DNA of 64,000 nucleotides from assembly GCA_000004985.1 (NCBI GenBank), contig GG738868.1; one strand, given 5' to 3'. The notes under the pieces were generated by a model. The model was not told where the DNA came from and made no database searches. It saw only the letters and a program-made list of their open reading frames with translations. Both the position numbers and the translations under genes were made by a program. Origin of the DNA: Naegleria gruberi (Eukaryota). Of the stretch, positions 2,104 through 49,923 are shown one piece after another; positions within the stretch are counted from its first letter, which is position 1, and every line of letters starts with the position of its first letter.

Positions 2104-5100
2104 TTAAATGCCAATTTTTAAGGACTTGCCAAGATTATTTTGTGAAAAATCAAAAACTTGTGAAAAGAATTCATATTCACTAGTCAATACAAATCTTGAA
2201 AAGGTATCAGAAAGATTCATAATGACATTATCTCTCAAATTCAAAAAACATTCATCAGCTTGTTCTTTCATTGGATTATTCTGCTTTAAATCAACCATTT
2301 CACTCTCTTGATTATTAGAAACTTGAAGCAGTTTCTTAAACTCTTTCGAACAAGAAGATGGAATATTAACTTCCATTTCAGAACCATTCTTGATATAGGT
2401 ATTGTAAATTCTTTCAATGAAATTGTTGATATCGTTTGCATTATTCGAATCCAATTTCTCCTTCTCTTGCAAATCCAAAAACAAGTACAAATTTTCAACA
2501 CTAAATTCCTTCCTGCAAAAAGCTTCAAATATTTCTCTTCCATATGAGTTTCCAATCAATTCCAACATTTCTCTATTTTCTTCTTGATCAGAAACCAGAG
2601 TTTCTGGAACTTTTCTCAATTTGAACCTAATCTTATTCGAAATGATAATCAATAGAGAATATCCACCAAACACCAGAATATAAACAGCCACATAGACCAC
2701 TTCAAATATGAATGCAATCACATCATTGGTCAGAACATTTCTATAACTCTGTTCATTATCATATCTGAAAGGAAGTGTACTCATTCCCAATGATTGATTT
2801 ACAATCAACAAGATGAAAAACACAATGTACAATAACATTTCACCTCTGAAATAGAGTGGTGTATCCATTGAGATGAGCCATTTGTGAATTCCCATTGAGG
2901 AAATTTTTTCCTTAACGATTTGTAAATCAACTTTTGTCTTTTTTGTTTCTTCTATTGATTTCTTATTGGACGAATGTTGCTTAATCATGGAATAAATGAA
3001 ATCCACAACTGCAGTGCCTGAAATGACAAGACTCAATGCAAATATGATAATAATATATGAAATGGAAATGATATAGGTATAGGCAGTAAGTGAAATGACA
3101 TCACATCTTCTTAAAATAACCCACAATGTCCAATAAAGTAAATTCAAAATGACAAATGTCAACAGAATGGAATTAACAACCTTTTTAGATGTGAATCTTT
3201 TAAGGTTTTTCAATAAACTTGATTGTGAAATATTGGATTGACTCTTTCTTAGTTGATGGAGAATATTGTAAAGATATTTCATTAATTGGAATCTCAATAC
3301 TTGAATGAGGTATGCAAGAATTGCTGTTAAATTCAAAGTATTTACAAAAATCATTACAATATTTGCAATCCAATTAGCAGCAAGATCACCACTTGACCAA
3401 TTCGTTGAATCTTTAAATAATTGATCAACTAGAACACTTCTCTGAATAATATAGATCAATAAACTTTCCACCATTAAGGCAATCATTCCCAAATAAGGAG
3501 TTGATAATCTAGAAATCAAAGGTTGACTTTTTCTAAATATTATCATTAAAATCAACACAGTGATTGAAATGATAAAGTAGAAAATACCCAAAGAAATTTG
3601 CCCATAATAAAGAGAAGCAACTTGACGTTTCGTATTATCACTTAGTGGAATAGTCTTTTGTTCGAGGAAGGTTGTAAAGAGTGTTGTGTGATTGCAAGCA
3701 CATTGAACAATTCTAGTTTCTAAATTGAAAGAATAGAGATAACATCCCTCATCACTCCAGGTTCCTGAACTTTCTTCCAAATAAGTACATGTGAAATTGT
3801 AATTGGAAGAATTTTGTAATTTTTCAAGAATGTTTTGATCCGTCAATTTGAATTCAATGATAATTGGATTGGCAAGATTCTCCAATTTTACCACTTTTTG
3901 ATTCTTTAAAAATTTGAAATCTGTTGTAATTGAAATTCCTTCACTTGTTCCATTATTATTCGAATAAGAATTGTTGAAAAGATTCGAATAGGTTAATAAA
4001 GAAACAGCACATTCACTGGAATAGGCAACATTTTGTGAAATGATATAAGAAGCATTAAAGGAAACACTTGTTTGATCTTGTTCCACTTTTTGGTTGACCA
4101 ATTGAGTGGAAGCACTTGAAATTACAAAAGCTGAAATTGTCATGTTAATATTCGATGAGGAATATGAGCTAACCACCAAACTACCATCATTAGTATCCAC
4201 ATACGTGACCAATTGACCAAGAATAATAAGATCAGCCAAATTCTGAGCTAATTCTCTTGAATTTGACAGTAAAAGTTCAGCACCAAGAAATTGAGAAGCA
4301 TACGAAAGGATTGAATTGACATTGCTGTTGGAAATCTTTGAATTAACATATCCATAGCTTGATTTACTTGTATTGTAACGGTTATACGAGTAGGATACAA
4401 GTTCTGATAATTTCGATAATGTAGTATTAGCAATAGTTTCGTCCAATTGAGTTTTTGAAATAATTTCTGAAAGACTTGACAAGGCAGATGAAGGATCACT
4501 TCCGCTAACATCTATATTACTCAATAAAGAAGCATAATACGTTGTAGATGAAGAGAATGACACGTCATAAATCAATGAAGTAATCAAATTGAAGTTTGTT
4601 CCAGAATTTGAAGAAATTTTTGAATATTCTTCCATGGTTCCATTGAAAAAAGCGACAAGTATGGATAATGATGAAGATTTGGAGTAATAATTGCCCAAAC
4701 TATCCATTACAATGATTCCCAATGAAATAGTTTCGCCAACATTCGGTAAAACAATTGACCGATTCAAATCCTGTGAAAAATCAGTAATTCTAATGGAACT
4801 TAGTTTTGAACTTGAGAATGTAATGGCATATTTCAATGGAAGTAACATTGAATCTGCACTCCATGGATTAATATTCAAGTTTACAATTTCCTTAATTGCT
4901 GAACATTTGGTTGAATTTGAATTCAATAAATTGTTTGGTGATTTTGGAGGAATTCTGAATTGTAATTCGAAAGAGGAATATAAACTAACACTGTCTATTT
5001 GTAGAGAAGCAGTTGCAGTGGATGAAAATCCAAATGTTAATGATGTGAAATTCACTGAAATTTGATTGGAAATTGAAATTGTTGGGAAAAGTGTTAAAAT

Positions 5101-8100
5101 TCCACTTTGAGTATTTTGAATTGAAATTCCAGTAAATGTTTTTGCTGAATTGGAGATTTGAACAGTAAAAGTTACTACTGAGCTAGTGAGTTTCAAAGAA
5201 TCAATAATTGTTTGGTCAACTGAAAGTTTAGAAATAATCAAATCAAAATTAACAAGATCACTTTTCGCAATATAGTAAGAAGGAAGTCCTAGAATCGAAA
5301 AAGGTCTTTCACAAATTGAAGAATATGCATTACAATAGGGTGTGAGCTTTCGAATAACACTATTTTCAGTATCAGCAAAATATAGCTCACCACTTGGTCC
5401 AATAGAAACAGTTCCTGGAGCATTCAATGAAGCAAGTGAAGCTAATCCATTATCTCCTTTGTATCCATTCGAAAGAGTTCCTGCAATTGTATAAATTGTA
5501 CCGTTTGTCAACACTTTACGAATTCTATTGGTTTCGGATATATAAATTTCTCCTCCTGAACTAATCGAAACTCCCACAGGAAGACTCAATTTAGCTGTAG
5601 TAGCTAAACCATTATCTCCACCATAACCATTTGTTCCAGTTCCAGCAATTGTAGTTATAGTTCCATTTGTGAAAACCTTTCGAATACGATTATTGGAATA
5701 GTCTGCAATAATTAATTCACCATTTGAACTCACAGCTACATCCTTAGGATTATTCAACTGTGCACTAGTTGCCTGACCTCCATCTCCTGCATATCCACCA
5801 ATTCCATTTCCAGCAATTGTAATTATCGTTCCATTTGTGAAAATCTTTCGAATTCTATGATTACCTGTGTCAGCAATGTAAATTTCTCCACTATTCGAAA
5901 TATCAAATAAAGTTGATACTAAAAAAGCGTTGCTAGCATTCAATCCATCTCCTATTCCTCCAGCAATGGTAGAAACCATTCCAGTAGTTGCCAAAATTTT
6001 ACGAATCTTCCAAGAAGAAGTTGTTTCACAAACTATCAAATTTTCACTCGAATCAAAAGTCAAACCAACAGGGTAAGCAAAATTAGTAATTGATTCATGT
6101 AAACCATCGCCGTTATATTCACTTCGACCTGTTCCTGCTATATTGGAAATTATACCAGTAACGCTAGATATAACTCGAATACGATGATTGTAATTATCTG
6201 AAATGTAAATATCACCTGTTGAACTAATTGCAATTCCGGCTGGATAAGATAATTGTGCATTGGATGCTTTCCCACCATCTCCTCCATAGGTACAAGTACC
6301 TGCTTTACCAGATATGGTAGTAATGGTACCATTCGAATAAATTTTACGAATCACACAATATACTATATCGGTAAAATAAACATTTCCTGAATTGAATAAA
6401 ACTGAAGAAGGATAACCAATGGTTGCATTGGAACCCAATCCATTGTCACCACTAAATCCATTCGTTCCAGTTCCAGCAATTGTTACGATGGTTCCATTTG
6501 TGAAAATCTTTCGAATACGATAATTACCAGCATCTGCAATGTAAATTTCATTATTTGCACCAATGGAAACATCAACAGGACTATAAAGTGATGCATTTGC
6601 GGCATCTATTCCATCTCCATTGTAAATAGTGTTTCCATTTCCTGCAATGGTTGTAATTATTCCATTATTCGAAACTTTACGAATTCTATGATTACCATAA
6701 TCAGCAATGTATAATTCTCCACTAGAAGAAATGGCAATTCCATTTGGTCTATTCAAGCATGTATTCACAGCAAGTCCTCCATCTCCACAAAATCCTGCAG
6801 TACCATTACCAGCAATAGTTGTAATTATTCCATTATTAGAAACCTTTCGAATACGATGATTATTCATATCACTAATAATTAGTTCACCATTCGTAGAATT
6901 AATAACACAATGTGATGGATAGTTCATAATAGCACTGGTTGCTGGAATATTATCTCCATTGTAAAAGATAGCTCCTGCCAATTTAACAGCAGGTCCATAA
7001 TTTAGATTAACAATTCTATCAATATACGAAACACTATTGGAAGTGTACATGACGTACATGTCATTATTAAAGAATTTGATTGAATTTGGATTGGAATAGG
7101 TCTGTATAATCGTTGTGTATCCAACAGTTCCAGCAAGTGTTGTAATCAAATTGGAAGTTAAATTAATTTGTCTGAATTGACCACTGCTGTCAGCAAATGA
7201 CAATTGATTGTTATTTAAAGACATTGAGCCAATTGGAGAAATGAATGCTGGAATTGCTGGGACATTATTTCCAAAACTACTGGTTCCTCCTGCAATCGTT
7301 GTAATTTTTCCACTGGACGAAACCTTTCTAATTCTATTGTTATTACTATCGGCAATATAAAATTCATTATTTGACGAATCAATTGCAATTCCAACAGGAT
7401 TATTAAGGGTTGCAATGGTTGCATCAATACCGTCATAATTATAACCAGATTGTCCATCACCTGCAATACTTGAAATTATCCCACTAGTAGCCGAAACCTT
7501 TCTAATTCTTTGGTAACTATCAGAAAAGTATAAATCATTACTTTTAGTCAGTGCAACAGATAATGGAAATCGAATAGGTGCATTATTAGCTAGGCTTCCA
7601 TCTGGACTGTTTGCAGCCTCTCCAGTTCCTACAATAGTTACAATAGTTCCACTTGAATAAACCTTTCGAATACGATTATTCACTAAATCTGCAAAAACAA
7701 TATTACCATCCGAGTCAATAGCCACACCAAAAGGTGTATTCAACATGGCATTCACAGCTGGTCCTCCATCTCCTGAATATCCACCTGTTCCATTTCCTGC
7801 AATAGTTGTAATCATTCCATTATTCGAAATCTTTCGAATACGATTATTGAGAGTATCAGCAATAAATACTTCACCACCAGAAGAAACAGCAATACCAATA
7901 GGATAACCCAACTGAGCACTTGTAGCAGGGATATTATCTCCATTGTAATTTGGCTCACCATTTCCTGCAATGGTTGTGATGGTACCATTCGAATAAATTT
8001 TACGAATTCGATGATTTGCATAATCAGCAAAATATACTTCACCACTTGTTGGATGGAAAGCAACACCATGTGGACTATTTACTGTGGCTTTGGTAGCATC

Positions 8101-8442
8101 TATTCCGTCTCCGTTATATCCTGCTTGACCATTACCGGCTATTGTAGAAATAATTCCATTATTCGAAATCTTTCTAATACGATTGTTGAGAGTATCAGCA
8201 ATAACAATCACACCAGAATAATAGGCAACATCTCTAACAGAATTTAACAAGGCATTCACAGCTGGTAGTCCATCACCAACAGAATTTCCTCCACCAGCCA
8301 CAGTTGTAATGTTATACGAAACTACCGACGAAACCGATTGACCACTCACACAACAACATGCGAGAATCACCACAAAAAGACTCAACCACACATCATGGCG
8401 TGTCCTTATTGTCATTTCGTTTTTTTTGATGTTCAATGTCAT
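2104..8442 (-). CDS. Giant adhesion-GPCR-like receptor. It has a signal peptide, about 18-20 NHL repeats, a Ser/Thr/Asn-rich glycosylated stalk, a GAIN/GPS motif, a 7TM domain and a C-terminal RGS domain. Single 2112-codon exon.
   Basis: Real ATG at 8442, with a second at 8415. Repeated motifs of the type 'NNRIRKI..NG.I.TIAGNG..GY.GDGG.A..A.LN.P.GVA' are NHL repeats. The GPS motif reads 'W.DEGC...ETRIVQCACNHTTLFTTFL'. Seven hydrophobic helices follow. The RGS box reads 'IFEAFCRKEFSVENLYLF...FLNLRDNVIMNLSDTFSRFV'. Confidence 0.85.
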   Translation of the reverse strand: MTLNIKKNEMTIRTRHDVWLSLFVVILACCCVSGQSVSSVVSYNITTVAGGGNSVGDGLPAVNALLNSVRDVAYYSGVIVIADTLNNRIRKISNNGIISTIAGNGQAGYNGDGIDATKATVNSPHGVAFHPTSGEVYFADYANHRIRKIYSNGTITTIAGNGEPNYNGDNIPATSAQLGYPIGIAVSSGGEVFIADTLNNRIRKISNNGMITTIAGNGTGGYSGDGGPAVNAMLNTPFGVAIDSDGNIVFADLVNNRIRKVYSSGTIVTIVGTGEAANSPDGSLANNAPIRFPLSVALTKSNDLYFSDSYQRIRKVSATSGIISSIAGDGQSGYNYDGIDATIATLNNPVGIAIDSSNNEFYIADSNNNRIRKVSSSGKITTIAGGTSSFGNNVPAIPAFISPIGSMSLNNNQLSFADSSGQFRQINLTSNLITTLAGTVGYTTIIQTYSNPNSIKFFNNDMYVMYTSNSVSYIDRIVNLNYGPAVKLAGAIFYNGDNIPATSAIMNYPSHCVINSTNGELIISDMNNHRIRKVSNNGIITTIAGNGTAGFCGDGGLAVNTCLNRPNGIAISSSGELYIADYGNHRIRKVSNNGIITTIAGNGNTIYNGDGIDAANASLYSPVDVSIGANNEIYIADAGNYRIRKIFTNGTIVTIAGTGTNGFSGDNGLGSNATIGYPSSVLFNSGNVYFTDIVYCVIRKIYSNGTITTISGKAGTCTYGGDGGKASNAQLSYPAGIAISSTGDIYISDNYNHRIRVISSVTGIISNIAGTGRSEYNGDGLHESITNFAYPVGLTFDSSENLIVCETTSSWKIRKILATTGMVSTIAGGIGDGLNASNAFLVSTLFDISNSGEIYIADTGNHRIRKIFTNGTIITIAGNGIGGYAGDGGQATSAQLNNPKDVAVSSNGELIIADYSNNRIRKVFTNGTITTIAGTGTNGYGGDNGLATTAKLSLPVGVSISSGGEIYISETNRIRKVLTNGTIYTIAGTLSNGYKGDNGLASLASLNAPGTVSIGPSGELYFADTENSVIRKLTPYCNAYSSICERPFSILGLPSYYIAKSDLVNFDLIISKLSVDQTIIDSLKLTSSVVTFTVQISNSAKTFTGISIQNTQSGILTLFPTISISNQISVNFTSLTFGFSSTATASLQIDSVSLYSSFELQFRIPPKSPNNLLNSNSTKCSAIKEIVNLNINPWSADSMLLPLKYAITFSSSKLSSIRITDFSQDLNRSIVLPNVGETISLGIIVMDSLGNYYSKSSSLSILVAFFNGTMEEYSKISSNSGTNFNLITSLIYDVSFSSSTTYYASLLSNIDVSGSDPSSALSSLSEIISKTQLDETIANTTLSKLSELVSYSYNRYNTSKSSYGYVNSKISNSNVNSILSYASQFLGAELLLSNSRELAQNLADLIILGQLVTYVDTNDGSLVVSSYSSSNINMTISAFVISSASTQLVNQKVEQDQTSVSFNASYIISQNVAYSSECAVSLLTYSNLFNNSYSNNNGTSEGISITTDFKFLKNQKVVKLENLANPIIIEFKLTDQNILEKLQNSSNYNFTCTYLEESSGTWSDEGCYLYSFNLETRIVQCACNHTTLFTTFLEQKTIPLSDNTKRQVASLYYGQISLGIFYFIISITVLILMIIFRKSQPLISRLSTPYLGMIALMVESLLIYIIQRSVLVDQLFKDSTNWSSGDLAANWIANIVMIFVNTLNLTAILAYLIQVLRFQLMKYLYNILHQLRKSQSNISQSSLLKNLKRFTSKKVVNSILLTFVILNLLYWTLWVILRRCDVISLTAYTYIISISYIIIIFALSLVISGTAVVDFIYSMIKQHSSNKKSIEETKKTKVDLQIVKEKISSMGIHKWLISMDTPLYFRGEMLLYIVFFILLIVNQSLGMSTLPFRYDNEQSYRNVLTNDVIAFIFEVVYVAVYILVFGGYSLLIIISNKIRFKLRKVPETLVSDQEENREMLELIGNSYGREIFEAFCRKEFSVENLYLFLDLQEKEKLDSNNANDINNFIERIYNTYIKNGSEMEVNIPSSCSKEFKKLLQVSNNQESEMVDLKQNNPMKEQADECFLNLRDNVIMNLSDTFSRFVLTSEYEFFSQVFDFSQNNLGKSLKIGI
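2160..2580 (-). other. RGS (regulator of G-protein signalling) domain at the cytoplasmic C-terminus (approximate).
   Basis: Conserved RGS-box motifs 'EFSxENL' and 'F..F.RF..S'. Confidence 0.75.
2655..3610 (-). other. Seven-transmembrane domain of the receptor (approximate).
   Basis: Seven hydrophobic segments of about 20-25 aa lie between the GPS motif and the RGS box. Confidence 0.7.
3688..3725 (-). other. GPS (GPCR proteolysis site) motif at the end of the GAIN-like domain.
   Basis: The sequence 'VQCACNHTTLFTTFL' matches the C-x-C-x-H-L/T-T-x-F consensus. Confidence 0.7.
5745..8310 (-). other. NHL-repeat beta-propeller region of the receptor (approximate bounds).
   Basis: Tandem ~45-aa repeats ending in '[NH]HRIRK[IV]'. 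Confidence 0.7.
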
Positions 8443-9700: not shown

Positions 9701-11563
9701 TTACATGCTTACCCTGGTTGATTCTTGTTCACGTGAATTTGTCTTTCCAGATAGTGATGTAGCATAAATGTCAGTGGAATAATTCTGCTCATATGATGGA
9801 TTGGTAGTGGTTCCACTCGTTGTTGTGAACCCAGTTAATATTCCACTATTTTCACTATCCTCATTCAACAATTTACCATTCTTTCTATTCCTCAAATTAC
9901 GAATTGGATCAATAAGACGTTGATAACATTCAGAAAATTTGGACTTGTCGAAAATAATGATAATAATCACAACAAATGTGGAAATGTTTGCAAAATTACT
10001 GACAATTTCCAAATAGAAACTGCTGATGAAAAAGTAAGCATTGGTACCAAATTGTCTTCCAAGGAAATTGCACAAACAAGCAACCAATGAAACCAACGAA
10101 AGCCCACAATATAATGAGAATTGAAACATGTACTATATTTCAATATATTAAATTGGAAAATTCAATGAAATTCTTGCACGTACCTTTGATTTGTAAAATG
10201 AAATGTGAGTCTTTTCCTGCAATTGATCACCCAACTTTTTGGCAATGTAAATGAAAACTAAAAAGTTTACAATCCATGGCAGAGAATAAGACACATAGGA
10301 CATTCCAGTAAGGATAATATTGACCTGTTGTGTCTCCAATTCATAAATAAGATATGAAACAATGTAAATGGCACATAGTGAATTGCAAACAAAACTAAAC
10401 CCAATCAATATAAGAGCAACTAGGGAATTCTTATTATCTCCAGCTTTGAGGAATTGACAAATTCTATCAAAGACCAACAGAACAGCCAGGGAACCATAAT
10501 GTGTGAAAAAGACATTCAAACTCAAAGCAATTGACGTTGTAAAGTAGAGAGTATCAAAACTATCGTACGTAGGATTCCAAAACATCATACAGGCAACCAC
10601 AACACAAATTGATTGCAACAAGATGATTATTGCACACAAGGCATTCAAAACTCGTAGCTTTCTCCGTATAATCATGGTTACAAATTCAGGAACAACATAG
10701 CCCAATATTGCAAACGGACACAAAGGTATTGAAATAAGCAATGACAGAATAAACTTGATCATATTGACAGCATCAGTTCTCAATAGAGAATTCATCACTG
10801 GATCACATAAATTTGAATAGATATCAAACCTATGACAATAGCAAAGAAATGGCGTCCTCAATCTCTCAAAATATTGATCCATAAAATAGACAGGAAACCC
10901 TGTTTGAACAGCTTCACAAAAGAAGGAAGATGGAAATCGTGTAAAAGAAGGACACTTGGATTTCTTTGTATCCGAATAATTGTCCATATCAATAATTAAA
11001 GTATGAAATTCCAAAAAATCCTTTCCCTCACTACAATATTGACAATAGTTCAATAATTCGTATTTAACCGTACTATTTTCGCCATTACAAAATGTTTCTA
11101 CACAGCTCACATTAGAATATTTTGCACACAAATCAAAATGGTCTCCCATAGGTTTAACAGGAGAGAATAAATTAGAATTCCTATCCTCCACATAGGCAGT
11201 TCCAAATGGTATCGACATTATCTTATCTGGAAAGTACACTTGTCGACATCCAAATCCAAAAGGTAAATCATAAAACTCAATAAAATTATCATTAATAAAT
11301 ATCTTCCTACTCGTTCCATTATCCGATCGTTCTATATAGGAACAATCCATCCATCTGTAGAATACATCAGAAGATTCCCTTCCAATGACAAAATCCCCAA
11401 TAATAAAAATCATCATGATGGTCGAATACAATATTATTTTCATCAAGGAAATATTCTTCTTCATCAGCCTACTACTAGTACTATCAATGAAATTCTGATG
11501 ATGACCAGAAGCAACGGGTGCTCTTAAAAGTCGCGACATTTTTTTGTGGTTGTTTTTAACCAT
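9701..11563 (-). CDS. Cys-rich ectodomain plus 7TM receptor-like protein, paralog 1. Two exons: ~10184..11563 and 9701..~10132.
   Basis: ATG at 11563. An N-terminal signal-anchor helix is followed by an ~230-aa ectodomain with a conserved Cys pattern and then seven TM helices. It aligns along its whole length to the downstream paralog; for example 'FYKSK|YMFQFSLYCGL' matches 'FFKTKYFYQFCALNTL'. Confidence 0.75.
10133..10183 (-). other. Phase-0 GT-AG intron of 51 nt in paralog 1. It is absent from paralog 2.
   Basis: The intron reads 'gtacgtgcaag...aaatatag' on the minus strand. Removing it restores alignment with the intronless paralog. Confidence 0.75.
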
Positions 11564-11768: not shown

Positions 11769-13778
11769 CTAGTTAATAGTTACATTGTTTGAGGATAATT
11801 CACTCACAAAGGATGTTGGGGTTGGTGGTACATAGTAAGAACTGTCTTTTCTATAGGTTTGATCTGAGTTGGTTGTTGAGTTGGTTGGTGGATAGGAAAC
11901 TGGAATTGAATTATTGTAATTTGTTTCTTCATTCGTTTCTTCGCTGGACAACAGAGAATCTTTGAGTTGATTATTATTCCTTCTACTATCGAATAATTTG
12001 AATAGTTGTAATATTGGTCTGTAACAATCGGTAAATAATTGAGAATCGTAGAGAATAACCAACATGATTAGAAGGGTTGAATAATTTGCAAATAGACTCA
12101 CTTGTTCAATATAGTAACTGAATTGATAAGTAGTAGAGTCGCTTCCAAATTGTCTTGCTAAAAATGCAGATAGACATGAGAATAAGGCAATACCTGACAA
12201 GGTGTTGAGGGCACAGAATTGATAGAAATACTTGGTTTTGAAAAATGGAACATTTGTCTTATTTCTAAGGGCCTTTCTCAATCGATATGATAAAACGAAA
12301 AACAACATCAAGTTATCAATCCATGGAATGGCAAAAGCAATATAACCAATCGCAACAACAATTGTTGCAATGGTTAGTCCTATTTTGGAAAATTCTAAAA
12401 TGTAACTTGTTGTCACATAAACTGCATTGATTGTCAATAAGATAAATGCCATCAAAATCATAATCTTGAACTTTGGACAATTACGTTTCTCTCCCGTATA
12501 TAAATAATTGTAAATTCTATCAAAGGTTAACATGACTGGTAACATGGAATAATAAGTGAAAAAGACATTGAAAGAGAGTGCCATATTTGAAAGGGTAGTG
12601 TTTTCAGATTCACCCAAGTAAGCAACAGCATACATGACACTTGAAATGACAACAGAACTAGATGCTGCCAATATAGTTAAAATACTGCAAGTATTGAGAA
12701 TGCCAATTTTTCTAACTCTTGATACTTGTCTAATTTGTGGAATTACATAGGTTATCAATGCTCCTAAGGCCAAAGAAGTGGAAAATAATATTGAAACGAC
12801 AATCTTGGCAAAATCAAATGCTGTGGTGAATAAAGATGAGTCACACATTGAATTAAAAGTTGAATATGTATGACAAAAGCAAAAGAATGGATTCCTTAAC
12901 CGTATGTAAAAACTATCCAAAAAATACAAGGGAAGGCCAGTTTGAATATTTCCACAATAGAAAGCTGATGGGAAAGTGGCAAATGCAGGACATTCAACAT
13001 TTCTAGAGGTAGTTTCATTTACTACAGCATCCTCTCTGTAATAAATCTTGTACTGAAATTGCAAAAAATCCTCCCTATTGTTCTTGCAATATTTACAATA
13101 ATTGAAAATTTCATACTTGTATGGATCTACACTTCCTAGAGATGAATTAGAGTAGCAAAAATAATCCATACAGCTGACATTTGAATATTTCTGACAAATA
13201 TCAATATTAACTCTACCAGGTTTAATTGGCGAAAATATGTCACTATTTCTTTCATTCATATGTTGAGTGCCAAAAGGTATTGATGTAATACTAGGTAATT
13301 TGACAACTTTACATCCAAATCCAAAAGGAAGGTCCTTAATACGAGGTAAATTACTCTTACTTATTGGAACAGTCTCAGTAGCTCCATTCAATAAAGGCCT
13401 CTCATACGAACAATCTTCAAATAGATTGAACACTTGCGCTGAAGATGATGGTAAAGTTCGTTCTCTCCCAGTTGCTACTTTACTTTCAATATTCTCTCCT
13501 TTAATTTGGGTCAATGTTGAAATATGATGCTGCCGATCATCAAATAGTTTCGTCGTTAAAGATGAATTTGTAGTATTCATTATAAATTGCATAATAGCTA
13601 GTGTACATAAACTCGACATGATGAAAATTACTAAAATTATTAACCAGCCGATGGGCAGTCGATGATTATTATTATCATTGTCATCATTATGCACAATAAT
13701 GGCAGACTTTTGTGAGATGGGCACTTCAACACTATTCACAACGATCCCCACACAATTATTGTTGTTATTATTATTCAT
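11769..13778 (-). CDS. Cys-rich ectodomain plus 7TM receptor-like protein, paralog 2. Single 669-codon exon with an N-terminal poly-Asn tract.
   Basis: ATG at 13778. Motifs shared with paralog 1 include FGFGC, D.C.KYSNVSC...FC, NYC.YC, CP.F..FPS.F.C and F.C.CH; twelve Cys are conserved. Seven TM helices follow the ectodomain. Confidence 0.8.
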   Translation of the reverse strand: MNNNNNNNCVGIVVNSVEVPISQKSAIIVHNDDNDNNNHRLPIGWLIILVIFIMSSLCTLAIMQFIMNTTNSSLTTKLFDDRQHHISTLTQIKGENIESKVATGRERTLPSSSAQVFNLFEDCSYERPLLNGATETVPISKSNLPRIKDLPFGFGCKVVKLPSITSIPFGTQHMNERNSDIFSPIKPGRVNIDICQKYSNVSCMDYFCYSNSSLGSVDPYKYEIFNYCKYCKNNREDFLQFQYKIYYREDAVVNETTSRNVECPAFATFPSAFYCGNIQTGLPLYFLDSFYIRLRNPFFCFCHTYSTFNSMCDSSLFTTAFDFAKIVVSILFSTSLALGALITYVIPQIRQVSRVRKIGILNTCSILTILAASSSVVISSVMYAVAYLGESENTTLSNMALSFNVFFTYYSMLPVMLTFDRIYNYLYTGEKRNCPKFKIMILMAFILLTINAVYVTTSYILEFSKIGLTIATIVVAIGYIAFAIPWIDNLMLFFVLSYRLRKALRNKTNVPFFKTKYFYQFCALNTLSGIALFSCLSAFLARQFGSDSTTYQFSYYIEQVSLFANYSTLLIMLVILYDSQLFTDCYRPILQLFKLFDSRRNNNQLKDSLLSSEETNEETNYNNSIPVSYPPTNSTTNSDQTYRKDSSYYVPPTPTSFVSELSSNNVTIN

Positions 13779-16788: not shown

Positions 16789-19635
16789 ATGTTTAGTTTA
16801 GTTTCGAATATTGATCAGAAAACAATGATAAACAATGAATATTGTAAAGTGTTGAGCAGATCAGCAAGCACCTTGATATTTGTCACATCCACATTACCTG
16901 TCACCATGTTACCTAATACCATTATAAAAAAAATGGGTCAGTCACAGTTATCCCGTGACTCTCAAAATAATCAATCGGATAATGACTATTACCAACCCAA
17001 TAATAATACTAACAACAACAATAACCCTGAACAACAAGATGATAATGTGAGCATTACTTCAGACAATTCACAACAACAACAACACGACGACAATATCAAA
17101 CAAATTAATAGACTATACGGATGGAGCATGATTGAATCAATGAATTCCTCTCATCACTCTCTCACACCCAGAAATAACAACAATAACACAACACGACTTC
17201 GATATTTGCAAAACAATAATCAACAGCAACAGCAGCAACAATTCCCGCCAACCACTACAACAACCACTTCTAAAAACCAGACAAGTCCAAGATTTGGCGC
17301 CAAAAAACAATCACACTCATCTGATAATTTGGAAGCAGGCAAAGAAAAAGAGAGGCGAGGAGTGGGCAGTGTCTATGATGGTATTTCTGGTGTTGAATTT
17401 GATAGTGTGGAAGAGCAGGAGAGACAACGAGAATTGGAGGAATTGTTAGCCTCATCGGCATCAACAACTTCATCAATTTTGAATGAAAATGATATAACAA
17501 TGATGAATAATAACAATAATTTGAATAATGATAATAGTAATAATAATAGAGTGAGACGTTCGATGGCAATTCATACCGGAAAACATTATTCGATTAGTTT
17601 GGGAAATGCCATTCATGAAAGATTACAAAAAGAATTGAAAAATCATGATGAAGCACAGAATAATGAAAAGGGGTTTTCAGCTCCGATTGGAAATGAAAAT
17701 TCAATAGATAATTACTATAGGGAAAGATCGGCTGAAAGAGGATCAACGAGAATGCATCACCGTCGTTCTTCATCGATAGATTCGAATATTTCCAATATGA
17801 TCAATAATGAAATGTTAAGTGTAAATAATCAGATAACAACTCTCTCACCACCAAATCAACCTTCCGAATTGATTGCAGGATCCCTCGTTCATGAAATGAC
17901 TTTTATTGAAGAGGAGTTGGATCCTGTGGAAAAGGCATCATGGAATGAAAAACATAGAGATATTGCCGAGTTGTGGAATTCAATTCCAAAATCATATCAT
18001 GCTGGTATTAATAGAGTTTACAACAAACTAAAAATTAGATTCAAGAATGATATTGATGTTTCTGATTATCAGATCAGACAAATGGCAATTGATTTGGGTT
18101 TTCCAAACTTTTTGTACGAATACATGTTCAGCAAACTCGAGAGAACAGTGTTTAGTTTACTGCACGACGAATACATTTTAAAGAAGAAAAAGAATAAGAA
18201 TAGAAGAAATCTACCAAAGAGACCTTCCTCTTCAGCAACAAAGAATGAATATATCACCACAAAAAATGTCACACCTGACATTCCAAATGTGACAGCTGTC
18301 TTACAGAGTCATGTTGTGGAATTCAAGACATTACCTTCTTCACCAGCTCTGCCAAGAACAGAATTATTGAATCGTTTATTCAATGATGAAGACGTTCATA
18401 GACAAGAGCCAAATAGACTTTTATCATCCTTTGACGAGTATATCAATATCAATCAAGACATGGTATTTGAGAAGGGTTTAAAGATTAAATTAATCATTAC
18501 TGAAGTGGGTAAGAGTCCTGGTAGAATTAGAACTGCTGCTTCTCCGATTATTAGTAGACTGAAAGTTTTTGATCAATTTGGATGGTTCCACACCAGTTTT
18601 TCAATTGGAAATCTTCGTTTTGATTGGACAAATAGTGGATACTGTGCTGTAACAACTGTCAAGTCAGCAACTTCATTGTTGGCCATAACAGTGAAGGAAA
18701 TTAGCACACTTCGTGAATTGGAGAGCATCATTAAACTACTTTCCATTGAAATTTCTCGTTGGAATAGAAACTTTTCATACACCAATTTGAAGGGAAATAT
18801 TTCCAAAGAGACAGGAAGTTGCCAAACATTCACTGTTGAAATGATGAAGATAATGGGAGTTTCGGATTTATCCTTTGCAGGAAATAATAGTATTCACAAC
18901 TTTTTACAGGACTTGCTCACAAAGGGTGATCCAATAACCAAGTTCTCCATGAATGAAGAATTTAAAAAGAAGTATACTGACTTGATTGATACCAAGATTG
19001 AGCAGTGCAAAGCTGTCACTGTAGTATCATCTCGTGAGCTGTTACTCGCCCAAAATTCTGTAGCCGAATCTTCCACAACATCAGACGAGGATGTTCTAGG
19101 TCAAGCATTCGCTCAACAACAACAAGCCCACTTTGAAATTAAGAAACAACAAAGTGCCAAAGTTAAGAGATGGGAACACTTTAAATCTCAATACTTTACA
19201 AGCAACAAGAAGCACATTATTTTTAACAGTCATAGAGAATTGGATTATTTTGTACTTTACTTGAAAGAACTCGATGAAAAGTTCAATGAAACTCAAGAAT
19301 GTGGATTATTGAATGCATTTGACAGAGGTTACTGGTTAAGATACTCGAGTGCAGTCTCTGTCATGCAAAGAATTCAACAACGTAAAAAACAACGAGAAAA
19401 TGCAAGATCAAAACTAGGTTTTTCAGATCCATTAAAACTTTCAAAAGAGGAACAAGAGGAATACATTCGAGTTAAAAGAGATTTGGAAATTTGTCAACCA
19501 CTCATAGAAGACGATCAATTCAAATGCGCATTTGGAGATCCTTCTCAGAGTCGTTCTCTTTTCATAGCAAATACCAAACGAGAAGATGTACTCACCATTC
19601 AAAAGGACTTGCAAGTGGGTTCCCTAAAGTTATAA
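16789..19635 (+). CDS. Long low-complexity (poly-Q/N) protein with a C-terminal PPPDE/DeSI-like cysteine-peptidase domain.
   Basis: ATG at 16789. (CAA/CAG)n and (AAT)n tracts encode the poly-Q/N stretches. The motif 'GWFHTSFSIGNLRFDW' resembles the PPPDE His motif, and 'YTNLKGNISKETGSCQTFTVEMM' resembles the PPPDE Cys motif. Confidence 0.55.
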   Translation: MFSLVSNIDQKTMINNEYCKVLSRSASTLIFVTSTLPVTMLPNTIIKKMGQSQLSRDSQNNQSDNDYYQPNNNTNNNNNPEQQDDNVSITSDNSQQQQHDDNIKQINRLYGWSMIESMNSSHHSLTPRNNNNNTTRLRYLQNNNQQQQQQQFPPTTTTTTSKNQTSPRFGAKKQSHSSDNLEAGKEKERRGVGSVYDGISGVEFDSVEEQERQRELEELLASSASTTSSILNENDITMMNNNNNLNNDNSNNNRVRRSMAIHTGKHYSISLGNAIHERLQKELKNHDEAQNNEKGFSAPIGNENSIDNYYRERSAERGSTRMHHRRSSSIDSNISNMINNEMLSVNNQITTLSPPNQPSELIAGSLVHEMTFIEEELDPVEKASWNEKHRDIAELWNSIPKSYHAGINRVYNKLKIRFKNDIDVSDYQIRQMAIDLGFPNFLYEYMFSKLERTVFSLLHDEYILKKKKNKNRRNLPKRPSSSATKNEYITTKNVTPDIPNVTAVLQSHVVEFKTLPSSPALPRTELLNRLFNDEDVHRQEPNRLLSSFDEYININQDMVFEKGLKIKLIITEVGKSPGRIRTAASPIISRLKVFDQFGWFHTSFSIGNLRFDWTNSGYCAVTTVKSATSLLAITVKEISTLRELESIIKLLSIEISRWNRNFSYTNLKGNISKETGSCQTFTVEMMKIMGVSDLSFAGNNSIHNFLQDLLTKGDPITKFSMNEEFKKKYTDLIDTKIEQCKAVTVVSSRELLLAQNSVAESSTTSDEDVLGQAFAQQQQAHFEIKKQQSAKVKRWEHFKSQYFTSNKKHIIFNSHRELDYFVLYLKELDEKFNETQECGLLNAFDRGYWLRYSSAVSVMQRIQQRKKQRENARSKLGFSDPLKLSKEEQEEYIRVKRDLEICQPLIEDDQFKCAFGDPSQSRSLFIANTKREDVLTIQKDLQVGSLKL

Positions 19636-19719: not shown

Positions 19720-20091
19720 ATGGAATCATTACATCTTGCTGCCTCTCCAATCATGCAGGTGTTGTCCGCAACATCTTCATCACAACCCAATTCCGAATCA
19801 TCATCTTTATTACACACAGCAACAATTAATACAACAATCAATAAGCCAACGAATAGTAACAAGGCATCCGAAGAACTTTTCAATGAATTCAATGAAAAAT
19901 CAAGCAACAATACTCCTTCAGCAGCATCATCATTGAATGTAACCTCCACACTGTTCACTCTTCCCAATACTGATAGTTTACCTGTACCAAACCTCCTCAT
20001 CAAACCTCGAACAAAAAACAAAAAAGAAAACCATGAAGAAGAAACAATCGGATCAGATTTTCATGAATCAGTCAGTGATTTTCAATCATGA
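19720..20091 (+). CDS. Ser/Thr/Asn-rich ORF that overlaps the next ORF in another frame. It may be the 5' part of the same gene.
   Basis: Real ATG at 19720. The composition is low-complexity. Confidence 0.35.
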   Translation: MESLHLAASPIMQVLSATSSSQPNSESSSLLHTATINTTINKPTNSNKASEELFNEFNEKSSNNTPSAASSLNVTSTLFTLPNTDSLPVPNLLIKPRTKNKKENHEEETIGSDFHESVSDFQS

Positions 20092-21676
20092 AGGAAAGAA
20101 ACAGAGAAATAAGACTATTTATTCAGTGAATCATCCAAAGGTTTCGAATCAGTTACGTAATTTTCATTTTCAAGTGGGTGAGGAAGTTAAGGTCAATGTG
20201 TGTGAATGTAAATCAGAGAAAAAGACTGAACATTTCGATAGGATTATTATAGAACATTTGGGATATACGAATCAGCATAATATGGATGCATCGAAAACTA
20301 TTGCAATTGAATTTGTAAATGTGTTGGCTTTCAAGAGGAGGAAGAATGACTCGAAAATATTGTGGATTTATGAATCGGTTGTGTTGGAATTGTTGAATTC
20401 TGATTCTTCTGATAATAGTCAACACACTTCAATGAATGAATCACCTGTTTTAAAGAGAAAATTGGATAGTATGAGCGAATCAGATCAGAGTAGTACGAGT
20501 AATGGCAGTACAGTTCATAACTCAAATTTGGAAGATGAATTTGAAAAGTGCTTTTTGGTAGCCGCTAATCCATTCATTGATTCGAATTTACTTTCTAATA
20601 TTGATGAAGAACAAACAAAGAGAAGTAAGCTCGATACCAAGATTGAGAATCTCTACCTAGAAAGTATTGAACCAGAGGATGCCCCGTCGAAAAAGCCAAC
20701 ACTATTTCAATTATCATTAGATTTGAATATTGAACAACCATATCACTTGTTCAATCCAATGATGAAACATTTCTGTTTGGATTTTGTTTCATTAGCTGAG
20801 GAACAGACAACCTTTGATGCAGTCATTATTAGTGTACAACCAATTATTACAAATATGGCTTCACTGAAGGGAAAGAAATTTGAATTGATTGGAAAAACAC
20901 CAATCATATCAATGTATGATAGTGTAAATACTTTTGTAAGATTATGTGTAGATACTCAAATTTTCATTTGTCAAAATTCGAATGAGGGAAAGCTATTCTT
21001 CTACTTTTATGGAGAGGACAAGAGAATGAGAAGTGAACAAATTATTCAAAATCCAAATGTTTATTCAAAGCAATCTGATGTGGAAAATTACAACTCAAAG
21101 ACTACTAATGAAAATATGAATCAAAAGGATTCTACATATTCTGATTTGATACTCTTTGAATTTGGGAGTGAAGACAACTTTCTATTCGAACAATTCAAGA
21201 ATGTTAATTTAGAACCAAAGAAATCTAGAAACTTACTCTTTGACAGATATTTGGAACTTAAAAAAGAAATGAATGACAGTGAAGAAGCAATCAAAGCCCT
21301 GGTCCATATTCAAGATGCACTTGGCTTTACCTTGTTGATGCATTTTGCAGCACGAAATATGGTAGAAGAGGCAAGAGAGTGTATTTATTGGAAGGCAAAT
21401 ATTTCACAACAAGATTCGTTTGGTCATGATGCCTTATTCTGGAGTAATTACTTTAAGGCACATTTGGTTACAGAGCTACTCACAGAGATCATCTCTGAAA
21501 TAGACCAAACAAGAGGTGACAGATCTGATGAAATTGCATTCCAACAACAAATAAGATTTGGTTTGGTGAATGCATCTTCAAGATTGGAAAAACGTAACAT
21601 CAAAGCATTCAATGAAAATAACGGCTGTTCAACTGATTTTTCCAATGAAGAAGAAAATGCAACTATTCTCAAATAA
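20033..21676 (+). CDS. Hypothetical 547-aa protein with possible ankyrin-like repeats at the C-terminus.
   Basis: ATG at 20033. The long ORF is clean. The C-terminal stretch 'LLMHFAARNMVEEARECIYWKANISQQDSFGHDALFWSNYFKAHLVTELL' looks weakly ankyrin-like. Confidence 0.5.
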   Translation: MKKKQSDQIFMNQSVIFNHEGKKQRNKTIYSVNHPKVSNQLRNFHFQVGEEVKVNVCECKSEKKTEHFDRIIIEHLGYTNQHNMDASKTIAIEFVNVLAFKRRKNDSKILWIYESVVLELLNSDSSDNSQHTSMNESPVLKRKLDSMSESDQSSTSNGSTVHNSNLEDEFEKCFLVAANPFIDSNLLSNIDEEQTKRSKLDTKIENLYLESIEPEDAPSKKPTLFQLSLDLNIEQPYHLFNPMMKHFCLDFVSLAEEQTTFDAVIISVQPIITNMASLKGKKFELIGKTPIISMYDSVNTFVRLCVDTQIFICQNSNEGKLFFYFYGEDKRMRSEQIIQNPNVYSKQSDVENYNSKTTNENMNQKDSTYSDLILFEFGSEDNFLFEQFKNVNLEPKKSRNLLFDRYLELKKEMNDSEEAIKALVHIQDALGFTLLMHFAARNMVEEARECIYWKANISQQDSFGHDALFWSNYFKAHLVTELLTEIISEIDQTRGDRSDEIAFQQQIRFGLVNASSRLEKRNIKAFNENNGCSTDFSNEEENATILK

Positions 21677-47680: not shown

Positions 47681-48034
47681 TTTTTATATTATTAATTTAT
47701 AATAAAAACAAAACGGATAAAATTATTAGATGAGGTCATTTGGTATTCGTTGGAAAGCGGATGATGAAGTAATTACATCAGCAACACAATTTTTTGAAAT
47801 TGAAGATAGTCTTTTACTCTGCTTCAATACTGATAGTTTGTTGTTTGAATTTTCCGCCAATTAATATCGTTACATTTTATGAATAAAAATCATCTAAAAA
47901 AAATATTCAACCTCGTTTGCTTCTCTCTTCTTTCATATTAAGATTCTGAATCACAATCTTATTAGTTGCAGCGACGGTCCTTCATCATCATCATCAACAT
48001 TATTAATTTGCTATTGGATTTCAAATAATTAAGG

Positions 48035-48946: not shown

Positions 48947-49073
48947 AATAAAATCTCCCGCCAAATCGTTACTGAAAAAAACAAATCCAAAAAAAATTCC
49001 TCAATAACTCTCTCCCTGTAAATTATATCATCATCAAAATCTATTATTCCAACTCATCACCTTCTAAAATACA

Positions 49074-49922: not shown

Positions 49923-49923
49923 A

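What the first reader, a model, noticed from the sequence alone, without database searches (positions are those of the whole stretch)
2104..8442. Giant NHL-propeller / GAIN-GPS / 7TM receptor fused to an intracellular RGS domain
One 2112-codon exon encodes a long array of NHL repeats, a heavily N-glycosylatable stalk, a canonical GPS motif ('CACNHTTLFTTFL'), seven TM helices and a clear C-terminal RGS box. Placing a GTPase-activating RGS domain on an adhesion-GPCR-like scaffold would make the receptor carry its own G-alpha GAP. I do not know this combination, with an NHL-propeller ectodomain, from well-studied models.
Basis: partly seen in the sequence, partly recalled or inferred. Interest (0 to 1): 0.65.

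Follow-up and report, generated by a model that had tools for sequence, protein, structure and literature searches.

The report
Naegleria NHL–GAIN–7TM–RGS receptor gene
This is an intact Naegleria gruberi gene for a giant surface receptor that joins beta-propeller and adhesion-receptor-type outer domains to a seven-helix membrane core and a built-in G-protein "off switch"; the design is real but was already described for a 28-member family in the sister species N. fowleri.

Summary
Window 2104..8442 (-) is one uninterrupted 2112-codon ORF. It is identical to N. gruberi XP_002677176.1 (NAEGRDRAFT_67572, "predicted protein"), which starts at Met10. It encodes a signal peptide, about 18 NHL blades, a beta-rich spacer, a GAIN domain ending in a GPS motif, seven TM helices and a C-terminal RGS box that keeps the canonical G-alpha contact residues.

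The novelty claim does not hold. Bosch et al. 2022 (PMC9283941) described 28 "7TM RGS" proteins in N. fowleri, several with GPS motifs and complex ectodomains, and showed GAP activity for three RGS domains. A profile search finds 92 strong relatives, and every named one is from Naegleria. Seventy keep GPS+7TM+RGS and ten also carry NHL repeats.

Three points go beyond the paper:
- The GAIN fold is supported by sequence profile and by predicted structure.
- The cleavage triad is H-T|T, not H-L|T, family-wide.

Most likely function: a ligand- or adhesion-regulated receptor-GAP for Naegleria G-alpha subunits, as with plant AtRGS1.

Verdict: new member of a known kind, with modest interest.

The parts
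2104..8442 (-). Complete single-exon CDS, 2112 codons plus a TAA stop at 2104-2106. It equals N. gruberi NAEGRDRAFT_67572 / XP_002677176.1 / UniProt D2VFB9. The annotated protein starts at the second Met (aa 10, nt 8415).
8341..8442 (-). N-terminal signal-peptide-like segment, aa 1-34. Basic residues are followed by the hydrophobic stretch VWLSLFVVILACCCV and then SG|QS.
   Evidence: Hydropathy peak at aa 14-44 and reading of the sequence. The cleavage position is inferred.
5344..8334 (-). NHL-repeat array, aa 37-1033. There are about 18 blades of 51-58 aa with the signature D-x-x-N-x-R-I-R-K. This is probably three six-bladed beta-propellers of the teneurin NHL type.
   Evidence: Pfam NHL 7e-80 and TEN_NHL 1.6e-81. 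PDB teneurin-like protein 1.5e-76. Blade register. Mean blade identity 47%. No DNA-level tandem repeat. The number of propellers is inferred.
4636..5343 (-). Spacer with a beta-rich, FnIII/REJ-like domain, aa 1034-1269. The confident part is aa ~1164-1264. It contains the family motif PW-x-ADS-x-L-x-PLKYA.
   Evidence: AF2 strands with pLDDT ~85. FnIII hits in Foldseek. The aligned region of the paralogues P0001/P0004 scores Pfam REJ at 28 bits against a cut-off of 25. This protein itself gives no REJ hit.
4216..4635 (-). GAIN subdomain A, an all-helical bundle at aa 1270-1409.
   Evidence: AF2 helices at model residues 236-375, pLDDT 75-90. Foldseek matches to the GAIN domains of CD97, BAI3, CL1 and ADGRL3.
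3658..4215 (-). GAIN subdomain B, a beta-sandwich at aa 1410-1595. It includes the GPS motif and the last strand TLFTTFLE.
   Evidence: AF2 strands at model residues 391-561. Family profile versus PDB: ADGRL3 3.1e-7, ADGRG1 5.7e-7, ADGRF1 3.7e-8. Foldseek.
3673..3792 (-). GPS motif, aa 1551-1590: C1552 ... W1562-S-D-x-G-C1567 ... C1581-A-C1583-N-H1585-T1586|T1587-L-F.
   Evidence: Pfam GPS 23.1 bits against a cut-off of 22.5. Cys/Trp positions. Motif conserved in 81 family representatives.
3658..3684 (-). Stachel-like segment TLFTTFLEQ, aa 1587-1595, directly after the putative scissile bond H-T|T. It has T at +1, F at +3, F at +6 and L at +7.
   Evidence: Sequence. Family conservation: +1 T in 81/81, +6 F in 79/81, +7 I/L/V (+3 F was required by the search pattern). 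Cleavage and agonist function are inferred, not shown.
2617..3639 (-). Seven-transmembrane domain, aa 1602-1942. Helices are at about 1602-1635, 1648-1676, 1682-1733, 1739-1779, 1785-1833, 1865-1888 and 1897-1943. A low-confidence third intracellular loop lies at ~1829-1850.
2173..2562 (-). C-terminal cytoplasmic RGS box, aa 1961-2090. It keeps the G-alpha contact residues E1983/N1984 (RGS4 E87/N88), N2026 (RGS4 N128) and D2079/R2083 (RGS4 D163/R167).
   Evidence: Pfam RGS 4.7e-12. phmmer to RGS4 at 2.8e-6 with alignment. Family profile to RGS5 at 2.6e-11. Invariant columns in A4. Foldseek to RGS1/9/16.

Best explanation
The gene encodes a member of the Naegleria GAIN/GPS-7TM-RGS family, a cell-surface 'receptor-GAP'.

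Shown by analysis here:
- The protein has a signal peptide.
- It has a large extracellular region made of about 18 NHL blades, a beta-rich spacer and a GAIN domain.
- It has a GPCR-fold seven-helix bundle.
- It has a cytoplasmic RGS box with all canonical G-alpha-binding residues.

Inferred by analogy with the experimentally tested N. fowleri paralogues and with plant AtRGS1:
- At rest, the RGS box accelerates GTP hydrolysis on one or more of the many Naegleria G-alpha subunits, some of which self-activate in N. fowleri. This holds them in the GDP state at the membrane.
- Binding of a ligand or surface to the NHL propellers alters the 7TM conformation, or the localisation or internalisation of the receptor. 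This changes GAP access to G-alpha and hence the level of G-alpha-GTP. The ligand could be prey, substrate or another cell.
- The signal may pass through the GAIN domain and its buried TLFTTFLE strand. It may involve autoproteolysis at H1585-T1586|T1587.
For: - Intact 2112-codon ORF in ~33% GC DNA, identical to the annotated N. gruberi protein.
- Domain calls: NHL and RGS strong, GPS at threshold.
- GAIN homology by family profile and by predicted fold.
- Seven TM helices with a GPCR fold.
- An odd number of TM helices after an extracellular GAIN domain places the RGS box in the cytoplasm.
- The RGS catalytic and contact residues are invariant in the family.
- The fusion is maintained. Of the 92 best representatives, 70 keep GPS+7TM+RGS. 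The named ones come from three Naegleria species.
- N. fowleri has 28 such proteins, and the RGS domains of 7TM RGS2, 3 and 4 are GAPs for Nf G-alpha2/3/5/7. G-alpha5 and G-alpha7 self-activate (PMC9283941).
- N. gruberi has more than 30 G-alpha subunits and 229 RGS genes (PMC5784254).
Against: - No experiment exists on this protein. Expression, surface localisation, GAP activity, the G-alpha partner and the ligand are all unknown.
- The nearest tested proteins are paralogues in another species, at roughly 31-37% identity over the core.
- The -1 residue of the GPS is Thr instead of the Leu of cleaved adhesion GPCRs and polycystin-1, so autoproteolysis is uncertain.
- The models rest on an 11-sequence alignment (mean pLDDT 70 and 76).
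- How an extracellular event would change the activity of a tethered RGS box is unknown even for AtRGS1-type proteins in protists. Bosch et al. say so explicitly.
Confidence: 0.7

Rival explanations
1. It is a true G-protein-activating receptor (GEF) of the adhesion type. Removal or movement of the ectodomain exposes the TLFTTFLE tethered peptide, the 7TM activates a G-alpha, and the fused RGS box only shortens or sharpens that same signal as a built-in terminator or kinetic scaffold.
For: - GAIN domain and Stachel-like pattern, with T at +1, F at +3, F at +6 and an aliphatic residue at +7, nearly invariant in 81 representatives.
Against: - No sequence motif of any G-protein-coupling GPCR class is detectable.
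- In the only studied 7TM-RGS systems, AtRGS1 and N. fowleri, the demonstrated activity is GAP, not GEF.
- A GEF and a GAP for the same G-alpha on one chain would be partly futile.
Confidence: 0.15
2. It is chiefly an adhesion or recognition molecule. The NHL propellers bind prey, substrate or other cells. The RGS box serves as a docking or scaffolding module without meaningful GAP output, as in GRKs or RGS-like domains.
For: - About half of the protein is an NHL array like the one in teneurins.
- Some RGS domains have lost GAP activity (PMC3971589).
- One tested N. fowleri RGS pairing was judged non-specific.
Against: - The residues that make RGS4 a GAP are all present and are invariant across the 11 aligned family members. 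These are the N128, E87/N88 and D163/R167 equivalents.
- Three of three interpretable N. fowleri 7TM RGS domains had GAP activity.
Confidence: 0.1
3. It is an annotation or assembly artefact or a dead gene. Either two neighbouring genes (an NHL/GAIN secreted protein and a 7TM-RGS protein) were read through as one, or it is a non-expressed pseudogene.
For: No transcript evidence could be examined here. Short 7TM-RGS members without an ectodomain exist in the family (P0089, P0092, P0093).
Against: - There are 6336 nt without a stop codon in AT-rich DNA.
- The GAIN last strand runs directly into TM1 with no room for a gene boundary.
- The same continuous architecture is seen in 70 independent representatives.
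- Functional residues are conserved throughout.
Confidence: 0.03

Closest known systems
Naegleria fowleri 7TM RGS family (Bosch, Jeck and Siderovski 2022, J Biol Chem, PMC9283941)
   Same: - Same core: GPS motif, seven TM helices and a C-terminal RGS box, with a large modular ectodomain.
- Direct homology. N. fowleri FDP41_004429 and FDP41_006917 are the first hits (E 7e-124 and 9e-68, 31-37% identity).
- N. fowleri FDP41_008291 also carries NHL repeats.
   Different: - Different species and a different paralogue, with no close orthologue in the searches run here. The best non-self match over the C-terminal 713 aa has 37% identity.
- The ectodomain here is purely NHL, about 18 blades. The paper mentions EGF repeats and lectin domains, not NHL.
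- This protein is untested.
- The paper speaks of a GPS motif only. The full GAIN fold, the H-T|T triad and the non-class-B nature of the 7TM are added here.
Plant 7TM-RGS protein AtRGS1 and other protist 7TM-RGS proteins
   Same: An N-terminal seven-TM domain fused to a cytoplasmic RGS box that acts as a membrane GAP for self-activating G-alpha. The inferred logic is the same: the receptor switches G-alpha off rather than on.
   Different: AtRGS1 has essentially no ectodomain and no GAIN/GPS. Homology of the 7TM parts was not tested here, so common origin versus independent fusion remains open.
Metazoan adhesion GPCRs (class B2, ADGR; e.g. CD97/ADGRE5, latrophilins, BAI3)
   Same: - A large adhesive ectodomain.
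- A GAIN domain whose last strand precedes TM1. The GAIN homology is significant by profile and by predicted fold.
- A Stachel-like T-x-F-x-x-[FL]-[LIVM] pattern.
   Different: - The 7TM is not a detectable 7tm_2 member.
- The triad is H-T|T instead of H-L|T/S.
- The cytoplasmic tail carries an RGS box, which no metazoan adhesion GPCR has.
GPR158/GPR179 with RGS7-Gbeta5 (class C orphan receptors)
   Different: In GPR158 the RGS protein is a separate polypeptide recruited in trans. Sequence identity is only 7-11%, so the likeness may be no more than the shared GPCR fold.
Polycystin-1 / sea-urchin REJ family
   Same: A REJ-type beta region directly upstream of a GAIN/GPS domain and then the membrane. 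Paralogues P0001/P0004 score Pfam REJ above threshold in the region that aligns with aa ~1100-1270 here.
   Different: This protein has seven TM helices rather than eleven, no PLAT domain and no channel-like C-terminal part. It gives no REJ hit itself.
Teneurin NHL beta-propeller
   Same: The NHL blades are of the teneurin type (Pfam TEN_NHL 1.6e-81; PDB teneurin-like protein 1.5e-76). In both cases they sit in the ectodomain of a surface protein.
   Different: Teneurins have one six-bladed propeller within a YD-shell architecture and a single TM helix. Here about 18 blades are placed on a GAIN-7TM-RGS core.

Membership tests
Naegleria GPS-7TM-RGS ('7TM RGS') family | Significant full-length homology of the GPS-7TM-RGS core to N. 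fowleri members | tested here: met
   E 6.7e-124 and 9.1e-68 to N. fowleri clusters. The alignment shows over 100 invariant columns through the GPS, TM and RGS regions. The profile search finds 92 relatives at E<1e-30.
Naegleria GPS-7TM-RGS ('7TM RGS') family | Seven TM helices followed by a C-terminal RGS box | tested here: met
   Hydropathy, AF2 and Pfam RGS 4.7e-12 at aa 1961-2090.
Naegleria GPS-7TM-RGS ('7TM RGS') family | GAP activity of the RGS box on Naegleria G-alpha subunits | not testable with these tools
   Shown only for N. fowleri 7TM RGS2-4 (PMC9283941). Here only the conservation of the contact residues could be checked.
Adhesion GPCR (class B2 / ADGR) | GAIN domain with GPS motif immediately before TM1 | tested here: met
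   Pfam GPS 23.1 bits against a cut-off of 22.5. Family profile hits the ADGRF1, L3, G3, G1, G6 and E5 GAIN regions at E 4e-8 to 1e-3. Foldseek to CD97, BAI3, CL1 and ADGRL3 at E 3e-9 to 1e-6.
Adhesion GPCR (class B2 / ADGR) | Secretin-like 7tm_2 transmembrane domain | tested here: not met
   [not shown]
Adhesion GPCR (class B2 / ADGR) | Autoproteolysis at H-L|T/S, with a catalytic His at -2 and a Thr/Ser/Cys nucleophile at +1 | tested here: inconclusive
   His at -2 and Thr at +1 are present, and +1 is Thr in all 81 motif-bearing representatives (His was required by the search pattern). The -1 residue is Thr in 78/81 and Ala in 3/81. Cleavage itself needs an experiment.
Adhesion GPCR (class B2 / ADGR) | Tethered-agonist (Stachel) activation of G-protein coupling | not testable with these tools
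   Only the pattern T-L-F-T-T-F-L, and its burial as the last GAIN strand in the model, can be seen.
AtRGS1-type 7TM-RGS | Architecture: a 7TM domain plus a cytoplasmic C-terminal RGS box | tested here: met
AtRGS1-type 7TM-RGS | Sequence homology of the 7TM domain to plant RGS1 | not tested
RGS domain (R4-like RGS box) | Helical RGS fold with the G-alpha switch-contact residues (RGS4 E87, N88, N128, D163, R167) | tested here: met
   Alignment to RGS4 and RGS16. E1983, N1984, N2026, D2079 and R2083 are invariant in A4. Foldseek TM-score to RGS1 is 0.72, normalised by target length.
NHL-repeat beta-propeller | Tandem NHL blades above the Pfam threshold | tested here: met
   NHL 259.8 bits against a cut-off of 20, 11 stretches, and TEN_NHL 274.5 bits. 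17 signature matches at spacings of 51-58 aa (one of 108).
Polycystin-1 / REJ family | REJ domain upstream of the GPS | tested here: inconclusive
   This protein gives no REJ hit at E<=1. The aligned region of paralogues P0001/P0004 scores 28.2-28.4 bits against a cut-off of 25.
Polycystin-1 / REJ family | Eleven TM helices with a PLAT domain after TM1 | tested here: not met
   There are seven TM helices, a short first loop (RKSQPLISRLSTPYLG) and no PLAT hit.

The most novel reading that the evidence does not exclude
The Naegleria family may represent a GAIN-domain receptor class whose output is the reverse of adhesion GPCRs. Under this reading, a family-wide, near-invariant H-T|T site and Stachel-like strand (T-x-F-x-x-F-[ILV]) are autoproteolysed. 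The exposed tethered peptide then acts on a non-class-B 7TM bundle to switch a fused RGS GAP, rather than a GEF activity. If so, two things would follow. Tethered-peptide GAIN signalling would predate, and be independent of, the class B2 7TM domain. It could also be coupled to G-protein deactivation.
Probability: 0.2. Interest if true: 0.7.

Novelty: new member of a known kind. Interest (0 to 1): 0.3.

Why it matters
The protein is another example that many protists control heterotrimeric G proteins with receptor-GAPs rather than receptor-GEFs. It also shows that Naegleria has diversified the ectodomains of one GAIN-7TM-RGS core (NHL here; EGF, kelch and lectin elsewhere) into a large sensor repertoire.

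Two points could be useful to specialists:
- The GAIN domain sits on a 7TM bundle that is not recognisably class B2. This bears on how old and how portable the GAIN/tethered-peptide module is.
- The cleavage triad is H-T|T throughout the family. This is a natural test of the -1 residue requirement for GAIN autoproteolysis.

For the pathogen N. fowleri the family has been proposed as a drug-target class, and the non-pathogenic N. gruberi gene is a safe model. None of this overturns current knowledge.

Tried and rejected
1. The first word-indexed homologue search with the C-terminal 713 aa returned only two clusters, and the alignment-based repeat returned only ten. Candidate selection was capped at the 8000 candidates sharing most words, so these searches greatly under-report the family. 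The index-free profile search was needed.
2. An exact-sequence look-up of the 2112-aa ORF failed because the public model starts at Met10. Look-ups of two neighbouring ORFs also failed. The organism was identified only through hit P0005.
3. I tried to place the 7TM in a known GPCR family by four routes. All four showed only a generic GPCR fold:
   - Pfam on the whole protein and on the excised TM region.
   - A 17-sequence TM profile against PDB sequences, where only chance ryanodine-receptor matches appeared at E>1.
   - Foldseek on the TM-only model, best E 0.075.
4. The afdb50 fold library, which could have shown a link to AtRGS1-type proteins, was not available.
5. Bradford et al. 2013 (PMC4871593) could not be read.
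6. I looked for paralogues or partner genes in the window and found none (tblastn). The neighbours are unrelated housekeeping genes.
7. I looked for DNA-level tandem repeats under the NHL array and found none. The blades are old and diverged, not a recent expansion.
8. I considered a polycystin-1-like identity because paralogues hit REJ. I rejected it for lack of a PLAT domain and of eleven TM helices.
9. I checked whether the stalk is unusually rich in glycosylation sequons. It is not.

Full report
**The observation**

Window 2104..8442 on the minus strand is one open reading frame of 2112 codons plus a stop codon. The surrounding DNA is about 30-35% G+C, so a stop-free run of this length cannot arise by chance.

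Pfam on the translation gives the following:
- NHL repeats, E 7e-80, 11 stretches.
- The teneurin-type NHL domain, E 1.6e-81.
- An RGS box at aa 1961-2090, E 4.7e-12, 46.8 bits against a curated cut-off of 23.9.
- A GPS motif at aa 1551-1590, E 1.1e-4, 23.1 bits against a cut-off of 22.5. This is only just above threshold.

A Kyte-Doolittle scan finds one N-terminal signal-type segment and seven hydrophobic segments between aa 1611 and 1939. The quoted string CACNHTTLFTTFL is at aa 1581-1593.

Two details are overstated:
- The stalk has 13 N-x-S/T sequons, against 13.4 +/- 2.9 expected from its own composition. It is not specially 'heavily' glycosylatable.
- The GPS is not fully canonical, because the residue before the scissile bond is Thr rather than Leu.

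**What it is and where it comes from**

The index-free profile search returned a 2103-aa protein. It is 100% identical, without gaps, to aa 10-2112 of the ORF. This protein is Naegleria gruberi XP_002677176.1 / EFC44432.1 / NAEGRDRAFT_67572 / UniProt D2VFB9, annotated only as 'predicted protein'.

The window is therefore N. gruberi nuclear DNA, and the public gene model is a single exon starting at the second Met. The neighbouring ORFs are unrelated eukaryotic housekeeping genes: GST, SLC35F transporter, subtilase, VPS9, M60 peptidase, USP, calpain, alpha-SNAP and RuvBL/TIP49. There is no paralogue elsewhere in the window and no tRNA.

**Anatomy from N to C**

- **aa 1-34:** signal-peptide-like segment.
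- **aa 37-1033:** 17 matches to the blade signature D-x-x-N-x-R-I-R-K at spacings of 51-58 aa. One 108-aa interval probably holds a degenerate blade, and a partial blade lies before the first signature. That makes about 18 blades, most simply three six-bladed propellers (the number of propellers is inferred). The blades are 47% identical on average, yet leave no DNA-level tandem repeat. They are therefore old and maintained. The best solved relatives are a 'teneurin-like protein' (E 1.5e-76) and teneurin NHL propellers.
- **aa 1034-1269:** a beta-rich spacer. Its confident part (aa ~1164-1264, pLDDT ~85) looks FnIII-like. It aligns with the stretch of the N. fowleri paralogues that scores as a REJ domain.
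- **aa 1270-1595:** a GAIN domain. An AlphaFold2 model of aa 1035-2112 (11-sequence alignment, mean pLDDT 70) shows a helical subdomain at aa 1270-1409. A beta-sandwich follows at aa 1425-1595, and its last strand is TLFTTFLE.
  - Foldseek against the PDB puts adhesion-GPCR GAIN structures first: inactive CD97 (2.9e-9), BAI3 GAIN (2.5e-8), latrophilin-1 GAIN (8.1e-8) and ADGRL3 GAIN (1.1e-6).
  - Independently, a sequence profile of 11 family members hits the GAIN/GPS parts of ADGRF1 (3.7e-8), ADGRL3 (3.1e-7), ADGRG3 (4.7e-7), ADGRG1 (5.7e-7), ADGRG6 and ADGRE5 in the PDB.
  - The four GPS cysteines (C1552, C1567, C1581, C1583) and W1562 are in place.
- **aa 1602-1943:** seven long helices.
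- **aa 1961-2090:** the RGS box.

**The RGS box**

Alignment to RGS4 and RGS16 shows the residues that contact the G-alpha switch regions. These are E-N in 'FSVEN' (RGS4 E87/N88), N in 'EVNI' (RGS4 N128) and D..R in 'DTFSRF' (RGS4 D163/R167). They correspond to E1983, N1984, N2026, D2079 and R2083, and they are invariant in the 11-sequence family alignment.

The family profile hits RGS5, RGS16, RGS3, RGS4 and others at E 3e-11 to 1e-8. The model superposes on RGS1, RGS9 and RGS16. The domain lies after an odd number of TM helices that follow an extracellular GAIN domain, so it must be cytoplasmic.

**The 7TM domain**

This is where the 'adhesion GPCR' label fails.
- No Pfam 7TM family matches, either in the whole protein or in the excised region.
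- A 17-sequence profile of the TM region finds no GPCR among all PDB sequences, even at E<=10.
- A separate AlphaFold2 model of aa 1587-1961 is fairly confident (pLDDT 76, pTM 0.75).
- Foldseek gives only GPCRs, but weakly, with a best E of 0.075.

The bundle is therefore GPCR-like in fold, of no assignable class, and not demonstrably a 7tm_2 domain.

**The family**

The profile search of 1.84 billion representatives finds 1097 proteins at E<=1e-3 and 92 at E<=1e-30. Every named one that I looked up is from N. gruberi, N. fowleri or N. lovaniensis. The rest are unnamed metagenome or read-archive proteins.

Of the top 92, 70 have the GPS motif, the 7TM and the RGS box together. Nine are short or N-terminally incomplete 7TM-RGS proteins without a GPS. 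Most of the remainder are truncated.

Ten of the 70 also carry NHL repeats. Pfam confirms NHL in N. gruberi NAEGRDRAFT_74387, 80558 and 63528 and in N. fowleri FDP41_008291. NHL was also found in N. gruberi 80662, D2VLB5 and P0026, by phmmer or by precomputed Pfam domains. Other members carry EGF arrays or kelch-like repeats. The family is thus one conserved core with swapped ectodomains.

In the 81 motif-bearing representatives, positions not fixed by my search pattern are still almost invariant:
- -1 is T in 78 and A in 3.
- +1 is T in 81 of 81, where S, T or C were allowed.
- +6 is F in 79.
- +7 is I, L or V.

Such conservation of H-T|T-x-F-x-x-F-[ILV] argues that this strand is functional. 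Whether it is cleaved cannot be told from sequence.

**What is already known**

Bosch, Jeck and Siderovski (J Biol Chem 2022, PMC9283941) reported the following:
- N. fowleri expresses 28 seven-transmembrane proteins with C-terminal RGS domains.
- Several have EGF-like repeats and lectin domains.
- The RGS domains of 7TM RGS2, 3 and 4 are selective GAPs for Nf G-alpha2, 3, 5 and 7.
- G-alpha5 and G-alpha7 are self-activating, like plant GPA1.

They state that it remains to be determined whether these proteins are receptors and how extracellular cues change GAP activity.

7TM-RGS architectures are reported from many bikonts, chytrids, filastereans and ichthyosporeans (de Mendoza et al. 2014, PMC3971589). 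N. gruberi is credited with more than 30 G-alpha and 229 RGS genes (PMC5784254). I found no paper mentioning NHL repeats in Naegleria, and none combining '7TM-RGS' with 'GAIN domain'.

**How it most likely works**

Shown here by computation: the topology and domain identities above.

Inferred from the N. fowleri experiments and from established knowledge of AtRGS1: the cytoplasmic RGS box accelerates GTP hydrolysis on one or more Naegleria G-alpha subunits at the plasma membrane, keeping them off. Engagement of the NHL propellers changes the 7TM conformation, or the clustering or internalisation of the receptor. This alters GAP access, so that G-alpha-GTP rises or falls. The signal may be transmitted through the GAIN domain and its buried strand.

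I put about 0.7 on this receptor-GAP reading. The rivals and my confidence in each are:
- A real GEF receptor with a built-in terminator: 0.15.
- A mainly adhesive protein with a scaffolding RGS domain: 0.1.
- An artefact or pseudogene: 0.03.

**Novelty and verdict**

The gene is in public databases but uncharacterised. Its architecture class has been published for the sister species. It is a new member of a known kind, with an NHL-only ectodomain variant.

The additions from this analysis are the full GAIN fold, the family-wide H-T|T triad and Stachel-like strand, and the finding that the 7TM is not class B2 but a generic (if anything class-C-like) GPCR fold.

The most novel reading still open is a tethered-peptide GAIN switch that controls a GAP instead of a GEF. 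I give that about 0.2. Overall interest is 0.3.

Noticed in passing
window 4691-5065 (+): A 124-aa TTG-initiated ORF lies antisense inside the receptor gene, opposite the spacer/GAIN region. It is most likely a chance ORF in an S/N/I-rich coding region.
   Followed up: no
window 39812-42010 (-) and 42769-43860 (-): Two same-strand ORFs each carry part of one ubiquitin-specific protease. UBA plus UCH profile positions 1-76 lie in the upstream ORF, and UCH positions 167-254 lie in the downstream ORF. They are probably exons of a single USP gene split by one or more introns.
   Followed up: partly
window 34916-36343 (-) and 35889-37760 (-): Two long ORFs overlap by about 450 nt on the same strand. 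The upstream one encodes an M60-like (enhancin-type) peptidase with its N-terminal domain. The overlap suggests an intron or a frame change within one gene.
   Followed up: no
window 48001-50000: This 2-kb bin has the strongest strand asymmetry in the window, with AT skew +0.227 and GC skew -0.183. It covers the ORFs at 48035-48946 and 49074-49922 (+). The cause was not examined.
   Followed up: no
window 10148-11563, 11769-13778, 16789-19635, 20033-21676, 55079-57472: Five long ORFs of 471-948 aa have no Pfam match at E<=1e-3. They are likely lineage-specific Naegleria proteins.
   Followed up: no
window 5344-8334 (-), aa 37-1033: The best solved-structure matches of the NHL array are two recent entries called 'teneurin-like protein' (9pt5, 9ifo; E ~1.5e-76). 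These score far better than animal teneurins (E ~1e-19). Their organism could not be seen with the tools.
   Followed up: no
family proteins P0089, P0092, P0093, P0099 (443-490 aa): Short members of the same family consist of only the 7TM plus the RGS box, with no GAIN or ectodomain. The GAIN-bearing and 'naked' AtRGS1-sized forms therefore share one 7TM-RGS core in Naegleria.
   Followed up: partly
[not shown]
   Followed up: no
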